Part shown: in pieces, positions 1,027 through 52,210 of the stretch | Numbering within the stretch: the stretch's first letter is position 1 | Layout of the letters: every line of letters begins with the position of its first letter | Source: a virus | Taxonomy: Duplodnaviria; Heunggongvirae; Uroviricota; Caudoviricetes | Reading direction: 5' to 3' (one strand) | IMG/VR virus record: IMGVR_UViG_2671181188_000017 | DNA length: 53,578 nucleotides | Notes under the pieces: model-generated | Told to the model about the DNA's origin: nothing | Seen by the model: only the letters and a program-made list of their open reading frames with translations | Databases searched by the model: none | Position numbers and translations under genes: made by a program

Positions 1027-1045
1027 TGGTGCGATAATAGGAACC
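1027..1045. repeat. Degenerate copy of the tRNA-Thr 3' end (candidate distal att repeat of the P4-like island)
   Basis: tggtgcgataatagga matches the att core tggtgccgataatagga with one missing base; lies in AT-rich intergenic DNA between the LysR gene and island cargo. A second weaker look-alike is near 1445-1475. Confidence 0.3.
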
Positions 1046-1575
1046 AATAATCGCCACCAACACAATGATTTTAATACATAAATTAAAATAGAAGATTTAA
1101 ACTACACACACCCCTATACACATTGGTGAAGGCGTTCGCTTTCCGCGCATTCTCAAGGCAGAAAAAACTTTTTTTGGGGGAAAACTGTTCATACTACTCA
1201 TTGTGTTTTTTTTCATTAATATTCAAAAAGATATGAAATTAACGATTGATAAGAAGTGAACACTTTACTGTTCACCTTGACTGATTAATAAGTGCATAAA
1301 AACCTAATTTTTGAGCACGGAAGGTATTTGTTCCTTACCCCATTTTTTCTCTTTAGTCCAGTACAACAAAAAATGCGCCCAACAGAAAACTGTTTTGAAT
1401 TTAAATGCAATCGCTTTGTAGTGATTGTAACGTAAGTTGATTTGATGGGTGCGATTTTGTTTAGCGATAATGGTATGTTGTAAAAATCATTTCGTTGCAA
1501 TAAAATTGCATCGCTACATTTTATAGACAATATCAATTAAATTTTAATACTCATTATTAATTTTGAGGCTAACAA

Positions 1576-2532
1576 GTGACTAGTTATTCAAACTTTTCCA
1601 ATCAAATAAAAGAAACCATCAATAATAAATTCGATCATGAAATTCATGATTGGGACATTATAAAAAACTCAATCACAACTTTAATAAATAAAAATATCCA
1701 TGGTGCAGGTAGAAATATCGTTGATTTTATAGATTTAGGTAACTGGGATTTTATTTCAAACTTTTCCTTTGATGACTCTACAAGAAGACTTGAATTAGAG
1801 TGGCACCCCAATGATAAATTCCATATATATATTGAGTCCGTTGTGTTTGTCGAGTTTAATGACACTATATATGCTTTCTTAAAGGGATACTATCACAATC
1901 AGTTATCTCTAAATAGAATATATAATACAAAATGCTCTTCATGTTCATTTGAAAACTCAGGTTCTTATATGGTAGACGTTTATAGAACGGTTAAAAGAGT
2001 AAATGAGACAATCCAGACCCCAAATATAAATTGCTATACTACATGTATTTTAACAAGGCCCGCAAATGGTCATGTTACATCTACAGGCTTCTCACGAAAC
2101 CTCATGGATGCGATAAATATTTCATTAGCAGAGCACAAAATAGCCTCTTTACATAATGAAGTCATGAGTATTGAGGAATATGATCGTGATTCTTTACAAG
2201 AGAAAGGAAATACTGCCAGGAGATATTTAGAATATATTCTCATGCTTGTTAATATTCGTATAATGCATTTAAACAACGTTCAATACCAAGAGCAAATGCT
2301 AGGTAGTTTAGTTTCTGTTATTGAGGCTCTGGACTATGAACCATTAATGAAAAATGATGTTGAAATTACAAAGGACATCCTTAATGCTTGCAGCCACCAC
2401 GGGGGGGTTAGAATTGAAAAGAAAGATGTAATTTTTTCTTTGGAAGTTATTGAAAACTTAATTAAAGCCATAAAGAAAACCGACATAAATAAATTACAAC
2501 TCGATGGGATGTTTAAATCAATTCAAAAATAA
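1576..2532 (+). CDS. Hypothetical protein, AT-rich cargo gene at the alpha-distal end of the P4-like island
   Basis: 318-aa ORF, strongly N/K/I-rich and AT-rich; convergent with the primase gene; no motif I can recognise. Confidence 0.5.
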   Translation: MTSYSNFSNQIKETINNKFDHEIHDWDIIKNSITTLINKNIHGAGRNIVDFIDLGNWDFISNFSFDDSTRRLELEWHPNDKFHIYIESVVFVEFNDTIYAFLKGYYHNQLSLNRIYNTKCSSCSFENSGSYMVDVYRTVKRVNETIQTPNINCYTTCILTRPANGHVTSTGFSRNLMDAINISLAEHKIASLHNEVMSIEEYDRDSLQEKGNTARRYLEYILMLVNIRIMHLNNVQYQEQMLGSLVSVIEALDYEPLMKNDVEITKDILNACSHHGGVRIEKKDVIFSLEVIENLIKAIKKTDINKLQLDGMFKSIQK

Positions 2533-2636
2533 ACATCATCTAACAATGAATTAGATGCATTTTCCGCTGACGCCTTAGCATATAACTTTTAAATTTTATC
2601 GATATATATTTTGAGATAATTTCCTGTAGCGGATTT

Positions 2637-2657
2637 AAGACCGGCACAGCCGGTCTT
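2637..2657. terminator. Hairpin (9-bp stem aagaccggc/gccggtctt, 3-nt loop) between convergent genes
   Basis: Perfect inverted repeat read directly in the sequence between the 1576..2532 ORF and the primase stop at 2665. Confidence 0.45.
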
Positions 2658-2664
2658 AGGTCAG

Positions 2665-4998
2665 TTATTTCGCTGCAAACTCATCGCATTTTGGCAACCA
2701 GTCAGCATTGCTTTCCTCTCTTAGGGCCAGATTAGTCTGCATTCCTTGATTGGTCCGTCGTTTCTCATACTGCAGCCCATATTCCTTGAGCATTAACGGT
2801 AGCCCCTTGCCAAACATGGTCAGACTGAGCGTATTTTTATAGCCGTTAGCCTCCATGTAGACCAGATAGGCATGGTAGAGGTAAGTTCGAGGCTGACGTG
2901 GAACAATATTAGCGTTCCCCATAAACATGCCCGTGGTGTCAGGTAGGACCTCAAGGTAGCCGCAAAAATCAAAAGCTGAATCAGCATCACGTTTGATGGT
3001 GAGCGCTTCATCGGAGTTCTGCTGTGACTGAAGCAATGTCCTGGCACTCATTGGGTCGCTGAAACGCTGCATAAGCTGGCGAACAATCACCGCTAGCTCA
3101 CTGGCAATTTTCTCTTTGAGCTGGGTATCGCGTTCCTCCGGGGCTATCTGGTCGGGGAAATGCAGGATCACCCTTCGGCGTGAAACTCCACCACTACGAT
3201 CAGTGAAGCGCATCGGATTATTGTTCACAGCCAGGATGACCGCCGGGATGTGGGTTGAATAGGCGTTCTGATATTTGGGATCAACGGATACCGCATCGCC
3301 GCCAGTGATGGCTTTTAGTCCGGCCCCGTCACCGCTCCACTTTTCCTGGTCGGGAAGTCGAATCAGTGAAAAACCTATTAACGCAGCTCGTTCTCTTGGC
3401 GACTCAAGCATTTCAATGGTTGCCGAGGTCGCGTTATCTTCACCCGCCAGCATGGTTGCTATTTCAGCAAGAATACTCTTTCCACTTCCGCCAGGGCCAG
3501 TGACCTCCAGAAACAGCTGCCAGTCATAACGGTTAGCCAGCACCATAAACAATGCAGCCAGAATAATGTCCCGTTTTTCAGGATTAAAACCTGCGGCACG
3601 ATCCAGCCAGCGCCAGAATGCCGGGGCATGGGTTTCCAGTGACTCACCGTCAACGGGCTGCGTGTAATCCACCTCGCACAGCGTACGTAACCAGTGCTTC
3701 TTATCGTGCGGGCTGAACAATCCTGTCCGGGTATCGAGCACACCGTTGCGAAATCCGATAAGTTGCCGCGCCGGATTCTGCTGTTGCGGAACGATCAGTT
3801 TGAGGGTTTCCACGAGAGACGCAATTTTCGCGGATGAAAAAGGTGCGTCGAGGCGCTGAAACAGCGCAGCGACATCACGGGCAAAATCGGCGTAATAGAT
3901 AACTTTCCAGGCCCCCGCCTCATAGCGTGAAAGGAGCTGCCCGTTCGGGTCTACTGCCAGTGAATTTTTATAGTGATCCACTACCCTCTGCGCTTTTTCG
4001 CTGACGCTCAGCGCGGTAAATTCAGCTTCGCTCATTGTGTCGAAGGGGCTGGCAACAGCTGGTTTTATTACTTCATGAATTGCATGCCGGGTGGCTTCTT
4101 CGCCGTTTTGCGTGAATGCATCGTTCCAGTCACCAAACACAGGCGGGAGCGCCATTGTGCAATTGCAGGCCCCGGTAACAGCTGCGCCCCTTGTTTGCCC
4201 CGCACCGTTGAGATCGCGGTCAGCAGCAATAATTATCTGGTGCGTTGGGTACTCACTGCAGGCAATGCTCGCCAGGGAAAGGAAATTGACGGACGAAAAG
4301 GCCACCATGACAGCATCGCCAGTCAGATAGTTGATAGTAAGTGCGGTGGCATATCCTTCCGCTATCCAGAGCCGTTTGGCTGCTTTGGCAGTACCTTCAA
4401 CCAGGTAAAAGGCATTCTTAACCTGACCGCCTTTAAGGAAGCATTTGCCCCCATTAGCGTTGATTAACTGCAGATTTACCAGCTCTCCATCTGCATACAA
4501 TGGAACGACAAGATCTCCCGCGCGAAATGCCACACCACCGACTTTATGCATAGCGGTTAATTCCCGGCAAGGCAGTGCAGGAAACCCTTTACTCGTCAGA
4601 TAGGCATTGCCAGTGGTCTGGCGGGACTTATCAAACAAACGGGCAGCCAGCACTGCTGCAGCTTTTCTCCCGTCCTCTTTTTCAGGAGAACCAGATTCAA
4701 GCATTCCCTGAGATACTGGCAGCAGGTTTCCGATAATGCCGTTTATTCTGTCTGCCGCTTCACTAATGCCTACATCCAGTACTTTACTTACAAGCGCCAG
4801 GCCATCACCTGCCCCGCACTGGTTACAGAACCACGTTCCCCGCCCTTCCTGGTCATCAAATCGAAAGCGGTCTTTCCCGGCACAGACCGGGCAGGGCTGG
4901 TGCCGATTTTTCAGTACATTTACGCCCAGCGCAGGTAAAATTCTTGACCAGTGACCCCGAGCTGCTTTCTCAGCCTGGCTAACTTTCATTCCTGACAT
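2665..4998 (-). CDS. P4 alpha-like primase/helicase (replication protein)
   Basis: 796-aa ORF (track 2665..5055; likely start at MSGMKVSQ); N-terminal zinc-binding CPVCAGKDRFRFDD..WFCNQCG typical of phage/plasmid primases, and C-terminal P-loop GPGGSGKS. Confidence 0.85.
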   Translation of the reverse strand: MSGMKVSQAEKAARGHWSRILPALGVNVLKNRHQPCPVCAGKDRFRFDDQEGRGTWFCNQCGAGDGLALVSKVLDVGISEAADRINGIIGNLLPVSQGMLESGSPEKEDGRKAAAVLAARLFDKSRQTTGNAYLTSKGFPALPCRELTAMHKVGGVAFRAGDLVVPLYADGELVNLQLINANGGKCFLKGGQVKNAFYLVEGTAKAAKRLWIAEGYATALTINYLTGDAVMVAFSSVNFLSLASIACSEYPTHQIIIAADRDLNGAGQTRGAAVTGACNCTMALPPVFGDWNDAFTQNGEEATRHAIHEVIKPAVASPFDTMSEAEFTALSVSEKAQRVVDHYKNSLAVDPNGQLLSRYEAGAWKVIYYADFARDVAALFQRLDAPFSSAKIASLVETLKLIVPQQQNPARQLIGFRNGVLDTRTGLFSPHDKKHWLRTLCEVDYTQPVDGESLETHAPAFWRWLDRAAGFNPEKRDIILAALFMVLANRYDWQLFLEVTGPGGSGKSILAEIATMLAGEDNATSATIEMLESPRERAALIGFSLIRLPDQEKWSGDGAGLKAITGGDAVSVDPKYQNAYSTHIPAVILAVNNNPMRFTDRSGGVSRRRVILHFPDQIAPEERDTQLKEKIASELAVIVRQLMQRFSDPMSARTLLQSQQNSDEALTIKRDADSAFDFCGYLEVLPDTTGMFMGNANIVPRQPRTYLYHAYLVYMEANGYKNTLSLTMFGKGLPLMLKEYGLQYEKRRTNQGMQTNLALREESNADWLPKCDEFAAK

Positions 4999-5011
4999 TG
5001 TGCGGCCCTCC

Positions 5012-5335
5012 TTAGTGCAGCGCTGGTTTGTTGAGGTGACGGGAACAAAGTTCATCCATGACCGTCATTCCGAGCAGTGAGAGAACCGGACAGGCTTTAA
5101 GCGGCCCCGACTCCATCAGATCCGAAAGCAACGCGCAGGCAATTTCCAGCCCTCTTTGCTGCCCATGCTGGCGCAGATAGAACCCTTCCAGCTCGCGGGC
5201 TATGGCATCTTCAAGTTCAGCGAGCGTCAGGCCGGAATAACGTTCCTGATGATTGCTTAGAGCCAGCCAGGCACAGGCAACGGCACGGCGATACAGAGCG
5301 GCACGAAGTGCCAGAAGAGATTCACAGCATATCAT
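5012..5335 (-). CDS. Hypothetical P4-like early-region protein
   Basis: 107-aa ORF in the operon upstream of the primase; start/stop overlap with neighbours. Confidence 0.4.
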
Positions 5336-5556
5336 CAGGCCACCTCCGCATTCATCAGGTCGTCATGGCAGCGTTGCACCACTCCATCCAGTTGCTCTGT
5401 CATCAGATAAATGAGGGAAACCAGTTGTTCGCATTGGGCACCTGCTGGCTTTTCATAACAGTCCTGCAGGGCTGCCATGCCAGTTACATACTCACCCACA
5501 TTGCGTAAATGTTTCAGCCTTACAACATCGTCGTAGGAAATCTCAAACTGGTTCAT
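5335..5556 (-). CDS. Hypothetical P4-like early-region protein
   Basis: 73-aa ORF, 4-nt overlap with the upstream ORF and stop/start overlap with the downstream ORF. Confidence 0.4.
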
Positions 5557-6106
5557 AGCGTCACCTCCCCGGCAGGCAGCCGTGCAGAAAGGGAGAGTAC
5601 ATAATCTCGGACTAGCAAACGGCGCGCGGAACGCTCATCGCAGGAGACAGTGCGAAGCATACAGATGCGGGGGTGAGTGTCAGCACGGCGGATTGCGGCA
5701 AACACAAAGACATATTGCGGGTGTGACGGGGTGAGGATTGTAGCCATGATGGCAGCCTCCAATAAGTAGCGGTTATTGCTACCACCGGAAACGCCAATTT
5801 CACTGGTGGCAGCCCGAACGGGGTTGGCGTAACCGGCCTTATTGGAAACCGGCCAGCCCGAAGGCTGCCCCGCCCGGACTACCATTATCTCGATAGAACC
5901 ATGGTGTAAGCATAAACACCACAGCCCTGAAAATGGTTGTGCCTGAGCTACGACGTAAAAAAAGACGCAAGGGGCGTCAATTGTCGCCAATAAGTTATAC
6001 GGAACGCCAATTCCGGCTGCCGATTTTGCGACAGCGGAAAAACTATACCTGGAAATGACGACAGTAAGCAAGCCAGAATAAAGGTATTTAATGTATGCAG
6101 GTATCA

Positions 6107-6367
6107 TCATGCATCACATCCCCGCCCACGGGCGCTGATGCGGTCCGCCATCCATGCGCTGACCTCAGACTGTGCCCAGGCGACATTTTTACCGCCAAGC
6201 GGGATCTGCTTCGGAAACGCATCGCGGCTGATCAGGTCGTAAACGGTCGAACGGGACAACCCGCATAAGTGCATCACCTCAGGCAGGCGTAAAAATCGCT
6301 CATGATGGTTCGATACAGGAAATAATGGCGCAGCAGGAGCTGGCGCAGACACAGAAATATTACGCAT
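6107..6367 (-). CDS. AlpA-family phage regulatory protein (Vis/excisionase-like HTH)
   Basis: ..[49 protein letters not shown].. matches the AlpA-type HTH pattern. Confidence 0.75.
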
Positions 6368-6919
6368 TTATCTACCCTCTTTAATTTCCACAACAGTCCG
6401 GATGAATTTATCCGGGTTCAGGTAGTTCCTTATTATGTGTATATAAACCACCTGCGCACGCATTTTTTATTTAGCGTCACATATTGATTTTATGGAATTT
6501 AAAGCCCGATTAAACCATATAAAATGACATAATAAATACCATGCCTGCGGACTATAAATACAGGAGCATTAATAGGAACTACCATTCACCCAGGGTTTAC
6601 TATCCTATGGGTCATTGCACCTGATAGTGCTAACCCCACCGCCAATACAGCAAGGCTGTACAACTTCTACACGAGGCCTTGCATTGCAGGCCCCAATTTC
6701 CGGGCATATTTTTGAATCGCATCCAACTTATAAACATTGGGCCTGCATAAAAACCTTGATATTAAATAACATCACCTTAAATCGTAAAATATATCCGAAT
6801 GAATCCATAAAGAACCGGACAGATCTAGTTTTATAAAAATCAGTATGAAATGCAACACCATGGCCAGAGGCGAAAATGTTATTCCCCGGCAAAAACATGC
6901 AGTCTATTTATGTGCCTGT

Positions 6920-7134
6920 TGAATACTCCTGAATAAGGGTGAATAGTGGTGAGGAGCAAAAAACAAATAGCTACGAGGAATAAAAAAACCACCCATTATG
7001 AAAAAATACCATAAATAATTTTATTCCCATGTGAACAGTTATGAACAGTCGATGAATACTGCCATGCCAACCCTTCACCTTATAACCTTCTGTATTACCT
7101 ATTTTTTTTACCTAAGTGAATAGTAGTGAATAGT
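6920..7134. promoter_or_regulatory. Three clusters of phased TGAA(T/C)A direct repeats in the divergent control region of the P4-like island
   Basis: tgaatact/tgaataag/tgaatagt at about 6920-6947, tgaacagt/tgaacagt/tgaatact at 7032-7060, gtgaatagt x2 at 7116-7134; roughly 10-bp spacing within clusters; upstream of the 7301 operon. Confidence 0.4.
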
Positions 7135-7300
7135 TAAGGTAAGTCTGAAACAGCCTTAGTTAAACGAGGCCTTTTCTGGCTAGCCAAAAGAGGTCCGGGG
7201 CGGTTCAGTCTTTGTCTTGTCGCTCGCACAATGGCGTTCAATGGCAGCTTTGTATGCATCACAGCACAATTGACACCACGACAAACCACTAGGTGCTGAC

Positions 7301-8053
7301 ATGACAATCCCAGAACAGAACAATAACCCGATCGTTGAAATTTCTATCCCTGTTTCGACGCAACAGGCGCTTGAGAAAGTGAATGCCACCAAATCTGCAT
7401 GGCTTGAAGCACGTCGTCAGCAAAAAGCGGCAGCGGATAATATTGCGACAATCCGCCAGCGCCGCGCTGAAATGGAAGCCACGACGAACGCCCTGAATGA
7501 GGAGTGGCGCACGCTATTTCGTGAAAGTCAGGGCGTAGTCTCAAAGGAAATGAAAAAACTGCGCACGGAAATTGCGCTGGGACGAGAAACGCTTGAGGAT
7601 TTTGATGAGCTGCTGGCGGCTCAGGAAAGCGAAAATGCACTTTTGCCGCAGGAGGCTGCGGAATTAGCCGGAAAGTATATCCACGCGCACGACACCCTTG
7701 TGGGTATTCGCGCAAAACAAATCTGGGAAGATTTTATGCAGTCGCATGGAAAAGCACTAATCCAGACACTAAGCCTGCTCAAATCAACAATGGGCAGGGA
7801 AGCCAGCGCAGTTGTCGGTGTGGTGCATTCAGTTAATGACCCGGACACACTGCTGAAAGATTTTATTCATAAACATATCACCAGACCGGCTCTGACTAAC
7901 GATGCGATGCCCGAACAGGACCCCGTGTTTAAACTGGCGGGAGTTGCCCCGGATTATGCGGCCCGTCTGGATTTCAGTAATAAACTCTCTCCAGCAGCTA
8001 TGCATAAAATGAAGGTTCGTCAGGAACGTGCTGAGAAGGAGAAAGCAGTATGA
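7301..8053 (+). CDS. P4 late-operon protein (Sid-like candidate by position and size)
   Basis: 250-aa coiled-coil-rich protein, first gene of the operon preceding the Psu-like and Ogr-like genes; assignment is positional. Confidence 0.35.
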   Translation: MTIPEQNNNPIVEISIPVSTQQALEKVNATKSAWLEARRQQKAAADNIATIRQRRAEMEATTNALNEEWRTLFRESQGVVSKEMKKLRTEIALGRETLEDFDELLAAQESENALLPQEAAELAGKYIHAHDTLVGIRAKQIWEDFMQSHGKALIQTLSLLKSTMGREASAVVGVVHSVNDPDTLLKDFIHKHITRPALTNDAMPEQDPVFKLAGVAPDYAARLDFSNKLSPAAMHKMKVRQERAEKEKAV

Positions 8054-8601
8054 TGGCCCGAGTCACTCCAGACCAAGCGCTTATCAGTTTTAGAAATGCC
8101 CGTATTCTGTGGGCTGGACATAGTGAGAGCCGAAAAGCCGTTGAACAACAGATAGAATCACTCCTCACTGCCATGGAAAAACCAGCAGATTATGCTCGAC
8201 AGCTCGAATTACAGCGGGAACATCTGGATGTGCTGAAATGGCAAATTAACTGTGCTGCGCGCGAATGCATTTACTCGCAGCATCAACTGATGGAGGCCTG
8301 CACAGAAGACGCTCTCAGCAATTTTATGCAGGCGAATGGAGCAGCCCTGACATCTGCACTGGCTCCGTTCCTGAAGGGGCGCGGAGGGGTTGACGTTGCG
8401 TCCCGTATATTACGCAATGCTCTGGTTCGCCAGCTGGCAATAACACCGCCTGAAATTGCCGGGGATTATCGTATGATTCTGGATGAATCCGGTGTGATGC
8501 CTGACCCCATGATGGTTCGTGATTGCCAGAGCTCTTACACCCCTGCACAACAACTGCGCTTTCAGCAACGTCTGGATTACATTAACGGCATGCAGGAGTA
8601 A
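8050..8601 (+). CDS. Psu-like (polarity suppression / capsid decoration) protein candidate
   Basis: 183 aa, size and position as in P4; segments such as LDVLKWQINCAA and ANGAALTSALAP resemble Psu as I recall it; 4-nt overlap with the upstream gene. Confidence 0.45.
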   Translation: MMARVTPDQALISFRNARILWAGHSESRKAVEQQIESLLTAMEKPADYARQLELQREHLDVLKWQINCAARECIYSQHQLMEACTEDALSNFMQANGAALTSALAPFLKGRGGVDVASRILRNALVRQLAITPPEIAGDYRMILDESGVMPDPMMVRDCQSSYTPAQQLRFQQRLDYINGMQE

Positions 8602-8606
8602 TATTA

Positions 8607-8879
8607 ATGGCACTTAAATGTCCCGAATGCGGTACGACGGCACACGCCAGAACCTCCGCCTATGAAGCACCATCGGTTAAACGCTCATGGTATCAGTGCC
8701 AGAATCTTGAATGTTCCTACACATTTACCGCACTGGAAAGTGTGGATACGATAATCATGAAGCCCCGGCGCAATGAACAGGAATCAGAGAAAGCACAAAT
8801 GCCGGAAAAACAACAGCAAACTCTCAATCGCTATGGCTCCGCGTCAAAGCTGTCAAGCCGTCAGCAAATTCCTGTCTGA
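8607..8879 (+). CDS. Ogr/Delta-family zinc-finger late transcription activator
   Basis: CPECG..HARTS..YQCQNLECSYTF: the C-x2-C..C-x4-C Ogr/Delta zinc-finger pattern. Confidence 0.8.
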   Translation: MALKCPECGTTAHARTSAYEAPSVKRSWYQCQNLECSYTFTALESVDTIIMKPRRNEQESEKAQMPEKQQQTLNRYGSASKLSSRQQIPV

Positions 8880-8897
8880 TTAGCAAAAAAAGCCCAC

Positions 8898-8925
8898 GTA
8901 ATCCCGGTCCAGTACTGGGATTTTT
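8898..8925 (+). terminator. Putative rho-independent terminator after the Ogr-like gene
   Basis: GC-rich palindrome (cccggtccagtactggga) followed by a T-run. Confidence 0.4.
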
Positions 8926-9232
8926 TACGCCTTTTCCCTGGCTGGCCTGAGAGCGCATGAGTGCATGTCTATAGCGCATGAAAACGCATGATTCTCATGC
9001 ACCATTTTTGACGCGAAAGCCCTTGTGTGGTGGCTTCTGAGACGATTTGCGGAATGCATGAAAACCAGTCTGTTAAGCGAAGCGAGCAGGCGTGGGGGGC
9101 TGCGCGCGCTAAGGGGTTAGATTATAAAATATCAAACGCCGGTGAGATCCATTATTGTGGAACCACCCGAAGGAAGTGTAGAGGCGAAAGTACCCAAAAT
9201 AATTTTGCAAATTATTTAGAAATGAACTGAGC

Positions 9233-9262
9233 GCTCGAAACGAAATATAATTTCGAGCACCC
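9233..9262. terminator. Hairpin (gctcgaaa...tttcgagc) downstream of the hotspot operon
   Basis: 8-bp inverted repeat between the convergent Ogr-like operon and the minus-strand hotspot operon. Confidence 0.4.
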
Positions 9263-9288
9263 CAATTAGCAGTTATATTTTTAATGTA

Positions 9289-9855
9289 TTAAACAGGATA
9301 AAAACCAGAGCTTCCATTCTTATTTAAGTTATGGATTTTATTTGCATCATTAATTTTTATTTGGAACGTCGGACCTTTATTCTCAAGAATTACAATCTGG
9401 AAATTATAGTCCCTTTTGATTAATGCGTGATAAAATGAATCACTGAGACTGACGCTATTAACATCCGATAGAGAACCCCCTCTATCTTTATCAAAGTGCG
9501 TCACTAATGGACTATCAAGCACAACAAATCCAATGAATGGATTCCCTTTTCTTGATAAAAATTCCGCAAAGCAAATGGTAAATATAGCATGCATTACTGC
9601 ACGGGTACCTTTACCAAACATTCCTCGGCGTTTCCCATTGATATTAAAGTCATATGTATCTTCGTCAAATCGCACTTTGTTATCTTTAGAATTTTCAAAA
9701 TTTATATCATTCAAAAAGTCTTGCATCGCTATTTCTATATCATACAAATCAGCTACTGTTAAGGAGTCAAAGTCCTCGGCGGAGTATTTAAGTTCGTCAA
9801 CATCATCTTCTTTATCTTGTAATGAAGATAGAATGCTATGTTTTGTGTGATCCAT
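9289..9855 (-). CDS. Hotspot ORF F: ABC/SMC-type ATPase C-terminal lobe (Walker B-like GFVVLDSP)
   Basis: 188 aa; hydrophobic stretch ending in D (FIGFVVLDSP); start ATG overlaps the ORF E stop as TAATG; AT-rich. Confidence 0.55.
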   Translation of the reverse strand: MDHTKHSILSSLQDKEDDVDELKYSAEDFDSLTVADLYDIEIAMQDFLNDINFENSKDNKVRFDEDTYDFNINGKRRGMFGKGTRAVMHAIFTICFAEFLSRKGNPFIGFVVLDSPLVTHFDKDRGGSLSDVNSVSLSDSFYHALIKRDYNFQIVILENKGPTFQIKINDANKIHNLNKNGSSGFYPV

Positions 9856-10445
9856 TAAAAGATTGTCTTTATATTCATAAAGTGATTCAAGAGATGAATG
9901 TATTGTTTTATATTTTTATCTTCTAACGTCTTAAAATCACTTTTTTCTGATTGATAAATTTCATTAACATCATTTTTTCTTAACATAATTAATTCATGTT
10001 CGCGAACATTAGATCCGATTGATTCAATTAATCCTTTCAGCTGGCTTTTGATTTTCAATTTTTCTGCATTACACGACAAAAAACAATCATCATATGATAT
10101 TTCATTTTCTTTTTTTTGCGGTGTATTACAGAACTCACAATAAATATCTGCAAAATTATTTAAATAGAAATTCGCCTGTGATACAACATCTATTCTTTGT
10201 AGATCTATAAAGTATTGGTCTTTAAGAAGACTAAATCTTTCAATGAGTAATGATAAGTATTTTTCCCTGTCACTGATTGAATATAATTCATCACTTAACT
10301 CTTTTAATAATTGCTTCTTATCATCAAGTGCATCAACAATACCTTTCAATATATCTTTCGATGATTCAATATCTTGCTCTACTTTCTCAAGTTCTCTTGA
10401 AACAATGACTTGATCATATTCAGGATAAATTAATTGCGCTTTCAA
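9855..10445 (-). CDS. Hotspot ORF E: coiled-coil segment with CxxC (zinc-hook-like) motif; probably continuous with ORF D
   Basis: 196 aa, heptad-rich, contains CEFC and CFLSC; has no ATG (track start is TTG); in the same frame as ORF D, separated only by one TAA and 10 sense codons. Confidence 0.4.
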   Translation of the reverse strand: MKAQLIYPEYDQVIVSRELEKVEQDIESSKDILKGIVDALDDKKQLLKELSDELYSISDREKYLSLLIERFSLLKDQYFIDLQRIDVVSQANFYLNNFADIYCEFCNTPQKKENEISYDDCFLSCNAEKLKIKSQLKGLIESIGSNVREHELIMLRKNDVNEIYQSEKSDFKTLEDKNIKQYIHLLNHFMNIKTIF

Positions 10446-10475
10446 TTCCTCATAAATATTTGCAATTTGATTTTT

Positions 10476-52134: not shown

Positions 52135-52210
52135 TGGTGCCGATAATAGGAGTCGAACCTACGACCTTCGCATTACGAATGCGCTGCTCTACCAACTGAG
52201 CTATATCGGC
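52135..52210 (-). tRNA. thrW: tRNA-Thr (CGU anticodon), attachment target
   Basis: 76 nt whose reverse complement reads GCCGATATAGCTCAGTTGGTAGAGCAGCGCATTCGTAATGCGAAGGTCGTAGGTTCGACTCCTATTATCGGCACCA. Confidence 0.95.

What the first reader, a model, noticed from the sequence alone, without database searches (positions are those of the whole stretch)
6920..7134. Three clusters of helically phased TGAA(T/C)A repeats in the satellite's divergent control region
Direct repeats with about 10-bp spacing occur in three clusters roughly 100 bp apart (6920-6947, 7032-7060, 7116-7134), between the AlpA-like operon and the late operon starting at 7301. Phased arrays like this usually indicate cooperative binding of a regulator (possibly the Ogr/Delta-like activator or a helper-encoded factor) or DNA looping.
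Basis: seen in the sequence. Interest (0 to 1): 0.4.

Follow-up and report, generated by a model that had tools for sequence, protein, structure and literature searches.

The report
P4-type satellite replication origin iterons
The phased TGAA(T/C)A repeats are real, but two of the three clusters are the replication origin of a P4-like satellite prophage (binding sites for its own primase-helicase), a well-known kind of element, and only the third, upstream cluster has an uncertain binding partner.

Summary
In detail: eight same-strand TGAAYA boxes lie at 6920/6930/6940, 7032/7042/7053 and 7117/7127. Simulated sequences gave at most four in any 215 bp.

The window is E. coli O157:H7, and the island (about 1027-13929) is the P4-like prophage known as Sp2.

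Clusters 2 and 3 align column by column with the annotated "ori type 1 repeats" of phage P4. The layout is three iterons, one inverted iteron, CTGTATTAC, a T-tract, then two iterons. The same 105-bp module occurs in 46 of 65 P4-like satellites from many Enterobacterales. The island also has:
- an intact alpha primase-helicase whose C-terminus matches the solved P4 origin-binding domain
- a homologue of P4 ORF106 (cnr, by my recollection)
- a crr-like second iteron site

So this is a P4-type ori1, not a transcription-factor array. The Ogr/Delta sites (TGT-N12-ACA) lie separately at 7213-7230 and 7251-7268.

Cluster 1 sits where P4 has its "type 2 repeats", which match the P2 Cox-box consensus. 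Seventeen of 46 relatives carry 186 Apl-operator-like TGGCAA arrays at this position. Cluster 1's own boxes (GGTGAATAnT) look like iterons, so its binder is unresolved: alpha or a helper factor.

Verdict: a new member of a known kind, of modest interest.

The parts
7030..7060 (+). Cluster 2: three direct type I iterons of ori1 (TGTGAACAGT 7030-7039, TATGAACAGT 7040-7049, GATGAATACT 7051-7060), spaced 10 and 11 bp
   Evidence: They align with P4 'ori type 1 repeats' at 9310/9320/9331, which have the same 10/11 spacing. The same columns are at least 90% conserved in 46 satellites.
7070..7079 (-). Inverted, degenerate iteron (ACCCTTCACC; reverse complement GGTGAAGGGT)
   Evidence: It aligns with the P4 inverted type 1 repeat at 9353-9360 (GATTGTTCACC) and with CTGTTCACC in 46 relatives. 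The same degenerate form occurs in the closest relative, L038.
7090..7113 (+). Conserved CTGTATTAC motif followed by a T-rich tract (TATTTTTTTTACC). This is the probable DNA-unwinding part of the origin (inferred).
   Evidence: It is nearly invariant across the 46 ori cores and identical in position to P4. The AT-rich region as part of minimal ori1 is from my recollection of Tocchetti et al. 1999.
7115..7134 (+). Cluster 3: two direct iterons (AGTGAATAGT twice), spaced 10 bp
   Evidence: They align with P4 type 1 repeats at 9396/9406. The distance to the sid start is 174 bp here and 177 bp in P4.
6920..6959 (+). Cluster 1: four 10-bp units (TGAATACTCC, TGAATAAGGG, TGAATAGTGG, TGAGGAGCAA) in the position of P4's 'type 2 repeats'. 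The binder is unresolved (alpha or a helper factor).
   Evidence: It lies 110 bp upstream of the ori core. P4 has CCACTTAAAG x3 at -133, and 17 of 46 relatives have at least 3 phased TGGCAA-type boxes in this position. In six diverged E. coli variants it is conserved as TGAATAnnGG x3-5 plus TGAGGAG, the only indel is one whole unit, and the 92-bp distance to the core is invariant.
1160..1279 (-). crr-like second cis site: one unit with iterons ACTGTTCATA (1184-1193), a degenerate box at about 1194-1202, AGTGAACACT (1255-1264, + strand) and ACTGTTCACC (1267-1276, which contains the exact P4 octamer TGTTCACC)
   Evidence: It aligns with both 120-bp crr repeats of P4. crr units with 4-6 iterons lie downstream of alpha in most relatives.
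2665..4989 (-). alpha primase-helicase, the origin-binding initiator (the ORF extends to 5055; the likely start is M23)
   Evidence: 73% identical to P4 alpha over 771 aa. Pfam finds Zn-ribbon, Toprim, D5_N and Pox_D5 domains. Residues 690-789 match PDB 1KA8, the P4 origin-binding domain, at E = 1e-45.
5012..5335 (-). DUF5375 protein, homologue of P4 ORF106 (cnr, the copy-number regulator, by my recollection)
   Evidence: 71% identical to P4 ORF106; Pfam DUF5375.
7213..7268 (+). Two TGT-N12-ACA sites (7213-7230 and 7251-7268): Ogr/Delta activator sites of the sid promoter, separate from the repeats
   Evidence: The consensus is given in PMC3931495.
6826..6858 (-). Conserved TTTTATAAAA ... GAAATGCAAC block directly left of cluster 1. 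It is a candidate core of the leftward (PLL-like) promoter (inferred).
   Evidence: It is largely conserved (GAAATGCAAC invariant) in six diverged E. coli variants. A GCAACA element lies at a similar distance from the type 2 arrays in P4 and in typical satellites.

Best explanation
The repeats belong to the replication origin region of a P4-like satellite prophage (E. coli O157 'Sp2').

Clusters 2 and 3, with the inverted unit, the CTGTATTAC motif and the T-tract between them, form the ori1 core. It holds five direct and one inverted 10-bp iterons on roughly one face of the helix. These are bound by the C-terminal winged-helix domain of the island's own alpha primase-helicase. Bound alpha, together with the second iteron site crr (1160-1279) and modulated by Cnr, would open the adjacent AT-rich tract, load its own helicase and prime DNA synthesis. 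This replicates the excised satellite.

Cluster 1 is an accessory phased array in the position of P4's type 2 repeats, just upstream of the leftward late promoter. In P4 that position matches the Cox-box consensus of the helper's Cox protein. Here the boxes (GGTGAATAnT) are iteron-like. They are therefore either extra alpha sites or the docking site of an unidentified helper Cox/Apl-type protein.

Shown: homology, architecture, conservation, and presence of all replicon parts.
Inferred: actual alpha binding, origin firing, and the binder of cluster 1.
For: 1. Phage P4 annotation (NC_001609) places rep_origin between orf88/vis and sid. It has type 1 repeats at 9310, 9320, 9331 (-), 9353 (+), 9396 and 9406 (-), and type 2 repeats at 9176-9205. 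The spacing pattern 10/11 ... 10 and the distance to sid match the window.
2. A pairwise alignment puts window iterons on P4 iterons column by column, including the inverted unit, CTGTATTAC and the T-tract.
3. 46 of 65 alpha-anchored loci from Escherichia, Klebsiella, Enterobacter, Pantoea, Erwinia, Yersinia and others have the same 104-106-bp module, with most iteron columns at least 90% conserved.
4. alpha is intact and 73% identical to P4 alpha. Its C-terminal 100 aa match the solved P4 origin-binding domain 1KA8 at E = 1e-45. The domain organisation primase / SF3 helicase / winged helix is described in PMC2777425.
5. A crr-like unit aligns with both P4 crr repeats, and crr units are common downstream of alpha in relatives. 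An ORF106 (cnr) homologue is present.
6. The repeat density is far beyond chance.
7. Cluster 1: the position holds phased arrays in about 40 of 46 satellites. P4's boxes read TTAAAGTCA, TTAAAGCCA and TTAAAGCAA, which fit the P2 cox-box consensus TTAAA(G/C)NC(A/C). Cox is known to bind upstream of P4 PLL (PMC3936717).
8. Cluster 1 is conserved amid diverged flanks, with a unit-sized indel and a fixed distance to the core. GGTGAATAGT is also a normal last iteron in many satellites.
Against: No binding or replication data exist for this element.

Asadulghani et al. 2009 saw no circularisation, replication or packaging of Sp2 (Table 2; conditions with and without mitomycin C) (PMC2669165). A P4-type element would not necessarily respond to SOS induction.

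The iterons are more degenerate than the family consensus. The leading GG is lost in three of five direct units, and the inverted unit is CTTCACC rather than TGTTCACC. The crr is a single, partly eroded unit instead of P4's two 120-bp repeats, and it is separated from alpha by an inserted ORF. The origin might therefore be weakened. However, the closest relative (Scandinavium, alpha 94% identical) shares these variants.

For cluster 1, no cognate protein was found.
Confidence: 0.87

Rival explanations
1. Cluster 1 only: it is the docking array for a helper-phage Cox/Apl-type protein (a recombination directionality factor and repressor). That protein would bind cooperatively one box per helical turn and switch on the satellite's leftward late promoter when a helper infects, as P2 Cox does at P4 PLL.
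For: - The position is the same as P4's type 2 repeats, which read as P2 cox boxes.
- 17 of 46 relatives carry at least 3 phased TGGCAA boxes there, against 0 of 460 control pieces. These match the annotated Apl operators of phage 186 and the arrays found in 186-like phages.
- Arrays in this position change completely between satellites whose AlpA and alpha C-terminal domains are 92-100% identical.
- WPhi Cox, which recognises other boxes, does not activate P4 (PMC5009727).
- A conserved promoter-like block lies directly left of cluster 1.
Against: - No P2-like or 186-like phage among 160 loci had phased TGAATA arrays, and WPhi's repeat is different.
- The resident P2-like prophages of an O157 strain and of strain D6, both of which carry this satellite lineage, encode a Cox identical to P2 Cox, whose boxes are absent from cluster 1.
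- The boxes match the element's own iteron at 7 of 8 positions. I estimated the chance of that for an unrelated box class at about 1-7%.
Confidence: 0.35
2. Cluster 1 only: it is an additional array of alpha iterons. It would extend the alpha-DNA complex at ori1, or let alpha regulate the adjacent leftward promoter.
For: - GGTGAATAGT (6938-6947) is identical to the two cluster 3 iterons and to the usual last iteron of many satellites. TTGAATACT resembles the third iteron ATGAATACT.
- TGAATA is the commonest iteron variant in this lineage.
- The distance from cluster 1 to the core is fixed at 92 bp in six diverged variants, and the only indel is one whole unit.
Against: - In other satellites the same position carries non-iteron boxes, with no change in alpha.
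- Erwinia locus L071 has a related array (TGAATATAGG) while its sister elements with the same alpha have unrelated arrays.
- Two of the four units are poor iterons.
- The P4 minimal origin does not need this region (my recollection).
Confidence: 0.4
3. One reading: all three clusters are operator or activator sites for a transcription regulator (Ogr/Delta-like or AlpA-like) that controls the divergent promoters.
For: - The region is a divergent control region, and phased direct repeats are typical of cooperative regulators (PMC7498355).
- One TGT-N12-ACA match (7030-7047) falls across two iterons.
Against: - Clusters 2 and 3 are homologous to an annotated replication origin.
- The true Ogr/Delta sites are elsewhere (7213-7268) and align with P4's.
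- The 7030 match is a by-product of TGTGAACA...TGAACA. The window has no excess of the pattern: 10 found against 13.6 expected.
- The AlpA helix-turn-helix is invariant while the arrays vary.
- AlpA-type phased boxes near int are GGAYT, not TGAATA.
Confidence: 0.05
4. The arrays are relics. The element is a cryptic prophage whose origin no longer fires, so the repeats have no present function.
For: - Iterons and crr are degenerate relative to the family consensus.
- The Lamassu cargo is fragmented.
- Sp2 showed no circularisation, replication or packaging in O157 Sakai (PMC2669165).
Against: - alpha, the ORF106 (cnr) homologue, alpA, sid, psu, delta and int are all intact ORFs.
- The same iteron variants are kept in a different genus (L038) and in diverged E. 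coli variants, where boxes are conserved while flanks diverge. That pattern indicates selection.
Confidence: 0.12

Closest known systems
Phage P4 ori1 (type I iterons TGTTCACC/GGTGAACA) with crr, alpha and cnr: the oriI replicon
   Same: - Same location (vis/alpA | ori | sid).
- Same 3 + 1 inverted + 2 iteron layout with 10/11/10 bp spacing.
- Same CTGTATTAC and T-tract, and the same distance to sid.
- Homologous alpha with the 1KA8-type origin-binding domain, an ORF106 (cnr) homologue, and a crr-like site.
   Different: - The iterons are more degenerate: TGAATA variants, the leading GG often lost, and the inverted unit CTTCACC.
- crr is one eroded unit rather than two 120-bp repeats, and it lies 1.4 kb from alpha behind an inserted ORF.
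- The alpA-ori distance is about 660 bp rather than about 280 bp.
- The upstream 'type 2' position carries iteron-like boxes instead of cox boxes.
P2 Cox boxes upstream of P4 PLL (P4 'type 2 repeats')
   Same: Cluster 1 has the same position relative to the ori core and to a GCAACA promoter element, the same 10-bp phasing, and three to four direct units.
   Different: The sequence is unrelated: TGAATAnnGG against TTAAA(G/C)NC(A/C). There is no evidence that any Cox binds it.
Phage 186 Apl operators (TGGCAA-type hexamers every 10-11 bp at pR-pL and attP)
   Same: It is the same kind of array, and the same box family is present at the homologous position of 17 of 46 related satellites (PMC7498355).
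   Different: The window itself has no TGGCAA boxes. The relation concerns relatives only.
Iteron-type plasmid origins (for example pSC101, P1, RK2): initiator-bound direct repeats next to an AT-rich region
   Same: Phased direct repeats are bound by a plasmid-encoded winged-helix initiator next to an unwinding element.
   Different: The initiator is a fused primase-SF3 helicase rather than a Rep protein that recruits DnaB and DnaG. The origin is bipartite, with a distant second site (crr).

Membership tests
P4-type ori1/crr replicon | Array of type I iterons (GGTGAACA-like) at about one helical turn: three direct, one inverted, two direct | tested here: met
   Window 7030-7134 aligns with P4 9308-9415. 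46 of 65 relatives share the module.
P4-type ori1/crr replicon | AT-rich tract inside the iteron array | tested here: met
   TATTTTTTTTACC at 7100-7112 aligns with P4 TATCTTTTTTATT.
P4-type ori1/crr replicon | Location between the vis/alpA gene and sid | tested here: met
   alpA is at 6107-6367 (-) and the sid-like gene at 7301-8053 (+).
P4-type ori1/crr replicon | Cognate alpha primase-helicase with a C-terminal origin-binding winged helix | tested here: met
   1KA8, E = 1e-45; 73% identity.
P4-type ori1/crr replicon | Second cis site (crr) with iterons beyond the 3' end of alpha | tested here: met
   Window 1160-1279 aligns with both P4 crr repeats. It is a single, partly degenerate unit, 1389 bp from the alpha stop.
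P4-type ori1/crr replicon | cnr gene directly upstream of alpha | tested here: met
   The DUF5375 protein is 71% identical to P4 ORF106. That ORF106 is cnr is my own recollection.
P4-type ori1/crr replicon | alpha binds the iterons and the site supports replication | not testable with these tools
   This needs EMSA or footprinting and a plasmid replication assay.
P2 Cox-box array | Boxes matching TTAAA(G/C)NC(A/C) | tested here: not met
   Cluster 1 units are TGAATAnnGG. The consensus is from PMC3936717.
P2 Cox-box array | At least 3 boxes every 10-11 bp, upstream of the leftward late promoter | tested here: met
   Spacing is 10,10,10. The array lies next to the conserved GCAACA/TTTTATAAAA block.
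186 Apl-operator-type array | TGGCAA-like hexamers every 10-11 bp | tested here: not met
   There are none in the window's array position. They are present in 17 of 46 relatives.
Ogr/Delta activator site | TGT-N12-ACA dyad upstream of a late promoter | tested here: not met
   This holds for the repeat clusters. The only overlap, 7030-7047, is a by-product of two iterons. Genuine sites lie at 7213-7230 and 7251-7268.
Vis/AlpA (RDF) binding array | The same boxes recur near att/int, and boxes co-vary with the protein's helix-turn-helix | tested here: not met
   There are no TGAATA boxes near att or int; GGAYT boxes are there instead. The AlpA helix-turn-helix is invariant while the arrays differ.

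The most novel reading that the evidence does not exclude
Cluster 1 would be one allele of a swappable 'helper-sensing' cassette that P4-like satellites keep between the leftward late promoter and ori1. The cassette copies the operator boxes of the cognate helper's Cox/Apl protein: P2 cox boxes in P4, and 186 Apl-type TGGCAA boxes in about a third of satellites. The helper range of a satellite could then be read from this position. In the O157/Sp2 lineage the cassette carries GGTGAATA boxes. These either match an undescribed helper Cox/Apl specificity, or replace helper sensing with the satellite's own initiator alpha, which would couple late transcription to replication.
Probability: 0.35. 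Interest if true: 0.6.

Novelty: new member of a known kind. Interest (0 to 1): 0.3.

Why it matters
Taken alone, this re-labels a "control region" repeat array as the replication origin of a P4-like prophage in E. coli O157. That is useful for annotation: PGAP annotates nothing in this stretch. It also helps in judging whether Sp2-type islands can still replicate and move.

The comparison shows that the 105-bp ori1 module and crr are conserved across Enterobacterales satellites. They can therefore serve as a sequence marker for functional P4-like elements.

The more interesting by-product is the variable array next to the origin. If it mirrors the helper's Cox/Apl operators, it would give a sequence-based way to predict which helper phage induces which satellite. 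Its iteron-like form in this lineage would then be a testable exception.

Tried and rejected
- blastn of the region against 50,697 phage genomes found nothing at E = 1e-5. A 56-nt cluster 1 query at E <= 10 gave only chance hits.
- An exact-pattern scan of IMG/VR for TGAATA-N4-TGAATA-N4-TGAATA returned 120 unrelated hits, mostly giant-virus and tandem-repeat contigs. It was useless for finding helpers. One hit (L120) may be a near-identical contig: it has a similar length and the match is at the same coordinate, but I did not inspect it.
- I searched for phased TGAATA arrays in 80 P2-like and 80 186-like phage loci, first with seed chains and then with all-hexamer chains. None was found. The first detector was too strict and missed even P2's own cox boxes.
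- I checked the resident P2-like prophages of an O157 strain and of strain D6. Their Cox is identical to P2 Cox, so they do not explain cluster 1. WPhi's repeat is also different.
- The primary P4 replication papers (Ziegelin 1993, Tocchetti 1999, Lindqvist 1993) are not held. Statements about alpha binding to type I iterons, the 123-bp minimal ori1, cnr and looping therefore rest on the GenBank annotation plus my own knowledge.
- A literature search on TGTTCACC returned only irrelevant primer hits.
- The 56-aa ORF at 6728-6898 and the 73-aa ORF at 6615-6836 are rejected as genes. They have no Pfam hit, and the indels among variants are not multiples of three.
- AlpA and Ogr/Delta were considered as readers and rejected, for the reasons given under the rival explanations.

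Full report
**1. Observation**

Reading 6500-7500 and scanning for TGAAYA confirm eight boxes, all on the + strand:
- 6920, 6930 and 6940
- 7032, 7042 and 7053
- 7117 and 7127

The spacings are 10,10 | 10,11 | 10. The repeat finder gives the same families. Eight same-strand boxes in 215 bp compare with a maximum of 2-4 in 300 first-order Markov simulations of the window. Poisson P is about 2e-11 at the window's own background rate.

- a fourth, degenerate unit of cluster 1 (TGAGGAGCAA, 6950-6959)
- an inverted degenerate unit at 7070-7079 (reverse complement GGTGAAGGGT)
- a distant group of the same boxes at 1184-1276

**2. Context**

The window is E. coli O157:H7 chromosome; the region is 99.9% identical to many O157 genomes. 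Pfam shows a P4-like satellite:

| Feature | Coordinates |
|---|---|
| alpha primase-helicase | 2665-5055 (-) |
| DUF5375 | 5012-5335 (-) |
| Ash-family ORF, containing the C4 and isrK RNAs | 5553-6110 (-) |
| AlpA/Vis | 6107-6367 (-) |
| repeat region | 6368-7300 |
| Sid-like | 7301-8053 (+) |
| Psu | 8050-8601 (+) |
| Ogr/Delta | 8607-8879 (+) |
| fragmented Lamassu system | 9289-12565 (-) |
| integrase | 12569-13801 (-) |

Direct att cores, ATGGTGC(C)GATAATAGGA, lie at 1027-1043 and 13912-13929. The island is therefore about 12.9 kb. It corresponds to prophage Sp2 of O157 Sakai (PMC2669165).

**3. Clusters 2 and 3 are the P4-type origin**

The P4 record (NC_001609) annotates a rep_origin between orf88 (vis) and sid. 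It contains:
- three "type 2 repeats" at 9176, 9186 and 9196
- six "type 1 repeats" at 9310, 9320, 9331 (-), 9353 (+), 9396 and 9406 (-)

That is the same 10/11 ... 10 spacing pattern as in the window. The last iteron is 177 bp from sid in P4 and 174 bp here. The P4 sequence and a pairwise alignment put these window features onto their P4 counterparts column by column:
- the iterons at 7030-7060 and 7115-7134
- the inverted unit
- CTGTATTAC
- the T-tract

The two TGT-N12-ACA dyads at 7213-7230 and 7251-7268 align with the two dyads upstream of P4 sid. TGT-N12-ACA is the consensus of Ogr-dependent P2 late promoters (PMC3931495). The Ogr/Delta activator therefore has its own sites, distinct from the repeats.

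**4. The initiator and the other replicon parts are present**

- alpha is 73% identical to P4 alpha over 771 residues.
- Its residues 690-789 match PDB 1KA8, the solved P4 origin-binding domain, at E = 1e-45. The arrangement primase / SF3 helicase / C-terminal winged helix is described for P4 alpha in PMC2777425.
- The DUF5375 protein is 71% identical to P4 ORF106, which I recall to be cnr.
- The box group at 1160-1279 aligns with both 120-bp repeats of the P4 crr. It contains the exact P4 octamer TGTTCACC.

Some statements come from my own knowledge of Ziegelin et al. 1993 and Tocchetti et al. 1999, because those papers are not held:
- alpha binds type I iterons in ori and crr
- the minimal ori1 is a 123-bp stretch with six iterons and an AT-rich region
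- alpha, cnr, ori1 and crr make up the oriI replicon

The GenBank feature table gives independent support for the iteron and crr assignments.

**5. Conservation**

Using alpha as the anchor, 80 loci from many Enterobacterales were fetched.
- In 46 of 65 loci with enough upstream sequence, the same 104-106-bp module was found. It comprises three iterons, an inverted iteron, CTGTATTAC, a T-tract and two iterons. Most iteron columns are at least 90% conserved.
- crr units with 4-6 iterons lie downstream of alpha in most loci. They usually start about 50 bp after the stop codon, but 700-2300 bp away in nine loci, as here at +1389.
- The window's iterons are more degenerate than the consensus. The closest relative (Scandinavium lactucae, alpha 94% identical) and five diverged E. 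coli variants keep the same variants. This argues for a lineage-specific form rather than random decay.

**6. Cluster 1**

*Position.* Cluster 1 lies 110 bp upstream of the ori core, where P4 has its type 2 repeats. Those read TTAAAGTCA, TTAAAGCCA and TTAAAGCAA. That matches the P2 cox-box consensus TTAAA(G/C)NC(A/C). P2 Cox binds upstream of P4 PLL and activates it (PMC3936717).

*Relatives.*
- About 40 of the 46 relatives have a phased array of at least three boxes at this position, and its sequence differs by lineage.
- Seventeen have TGGCAA/TTGCCA-type boxes, against 0 of 460 control pieces.
- This is the same box as the annotated Apl operators of phage 186 and as the arrays found at the switch and near int in 186-like phages.
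- WPhi Cox recognises a different repeat and does not activate P4 (PMC5009727).

*Which protein reads the array in general.* Among the Erwinia/Pantoea/Mixta-group loci, AlpA is 92-96% identical and the alpha C-terminal domain 97-100% identical, yet the arrays are unrelated. In general, then, neither AlpA nor alpha reads this position. A helper Cox/Apl-type protein is the natural candidate.

*What complicates this for the window.*
- Its boxes (GGTGAATAGT, TTGAATACT and so on) are iteron-like. GGTGAATAGT is a normal last iteron in many satellites.
- In six diverged E. coli variants the array is kept as TGAATAnnGG x3-5 plus TGAGGAG. The only indel is one whole unit, and the distance to the core is an invariant 92 bp.
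- No P2-like or 186-like phage with such boxes was found.
- Two co-resident P2-like prophages encode standard P2 Cox.

I therefore leave the binder open: alpha about 0.4, a helper factor about 0.35, and the rest other or none.

A block largely conserved across the six variants (TTTTATAAAA ... GAAATGCAAC, 6826-6858) lies directly left of cluster 1. It resembles the GCAACA element next to the arrays in P4 and in typical satellites. This suggests the leftward late promoter sits there.

**7. Mechanism proposed**

After excision, alpha molecules would occupy the five direct and one inverted iterons of ori1 and the iterons of crr. Cnr would modulate binding. The complex would open the T-rich tract at 7100-7112, and alpha's own helicase and primase would start replication. 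These steps are inferred from homology to P4; none was shown here.

Cluster 1 would either extend this complex or receive a helper signal for leftward late transcription.

**8. Comparison and novelty**

The element passes every sequence-level test for a P4-type ori1/crr replicon. It differs in four ways:
- more degenerate iterons
- a single crr unit, displaced from alpha
- a 450-bp longer alpA-ori interval
- the nature of the upstream array

It is a new member of a known kind. Cooperative binding and looping are the right kind of idea, but the regulator named is wrong for clusters 2 and 3, and "helper-encoded factor" survives only for cluster 1.

I found no paper in the held library that describes Apl-type boxes in P4-like satellites. 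The helper-matching cassette idea may therefore be new, but it goes beyond this window and is untested.

Noticed in passing
window 9289-12565 (- strand): A Lamassu defence system sits in the psu/delta-to-int cargo hotspot, and it is fragmented. LmuA is split into two ORFs (12149-12565 and 11559-12176). LmuC is at 11101-11574. LmuB is split into three ORFs (10476-11135, 9855-10445 and 9289-9855). It is probably inactivated by frameshifts.
   Followed up: partly
window 1576-2532 (+): A 318-aa ORF with no Pfam or PADLOC hit is inserted between the crr-like site and the 3' end of alpha. In nine relatives crr is likewise displaced by 0.7-2.3 kb. The alpha-crr interval therefore looks like a second cargo insertion point.
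   Followed up: partly
window 5802-6048 (- strand): Rfam finds C4 antisense RNA (5802-5889, 84 bits), isrK (5958-6035) and a C4 target (5996-6048) inside the 'Ash' ORF 5553-6110. This is the P4-type RNA immunity region.
   Followed up: no
window 13809-13850; L001 (P4) 3965-4010 and 4040-4070: Four GGAYT boxes at exact 10-bp phasing lie just upstream of the integrase start. P4 has CGGA boxes with 10-11 bp phasing at the same place. They are likely Vis/AlpA (excisionase) or Int arm sites, and they differ from the TGAATA boxes.
   Followed up: partly
window 1027-1043 and 13912-13929: Direct repeats ATGGTGC(C)GATAATAGGA mark the ends of the island (attL and attR). The attR copy continues into a sequence that looks like a tRNA 3' end, but ARAGORN calls no tRNA there.
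   Followed up: partly
window 6368-6825: This satellite lineage has about 450 bp of extra sequence between alpA and the promoter-like block. It looks non-coding, because indels among variants are not multiples of three. It includes phased A-tract, cox-box-like units (TTTAAAGCCCG / ATTAAACCATA / TAAAATGACA, about 6494-6530). Its function is unknown.
   Followed up: partly
window about 18500-52210: A separate, apparently complete myovirus-type prophage lies next to tRNA-Thr (52135-52210). It has a large terminase, portal, HK97-type capsid, tail sheath, baseplate J, a CI-like S24 repressor and an integrase. It is not P2-like, so it is unlikely to be the satellite's helper.
   Followed up: partly
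L003-L081 (about 110-150 bp upstream of each ori core); L203 1557-1624; L285-L364: Seventeen of 46 P4-like satellites carry at least 3 phased TGGCAA/TTGCCA boxes at the 'type 2 repeat' position. These are the same boxes as the phage 186 Apl operators and the arrays of 186-like phages. The pattern suggests that satellites copy their helper's Cox/Apl operators.
   Followed up: yes
window 7030-7047: A TGT-N12-ACA match falls across the first two iterons (TGTGAACAGTTATGAACA). It is a by-product of the iteron sequence and could be mistaken for an Ogr/Delta site.
   Followed up: yes
L284 3972-4247; L370 2973-3248: The P2-like prophages at the yegR-side site (between yegR and the prophage integrase) of O157:H7 ATCC 43890 and of strain D6 encode a Cox protein identical to P2 Cox. 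The O157 copy has the same Pe-Pc switch sequence as P2. It is also followed by a reverse-transcriptase (retron-like) cargo gene.
   Followed up: partly
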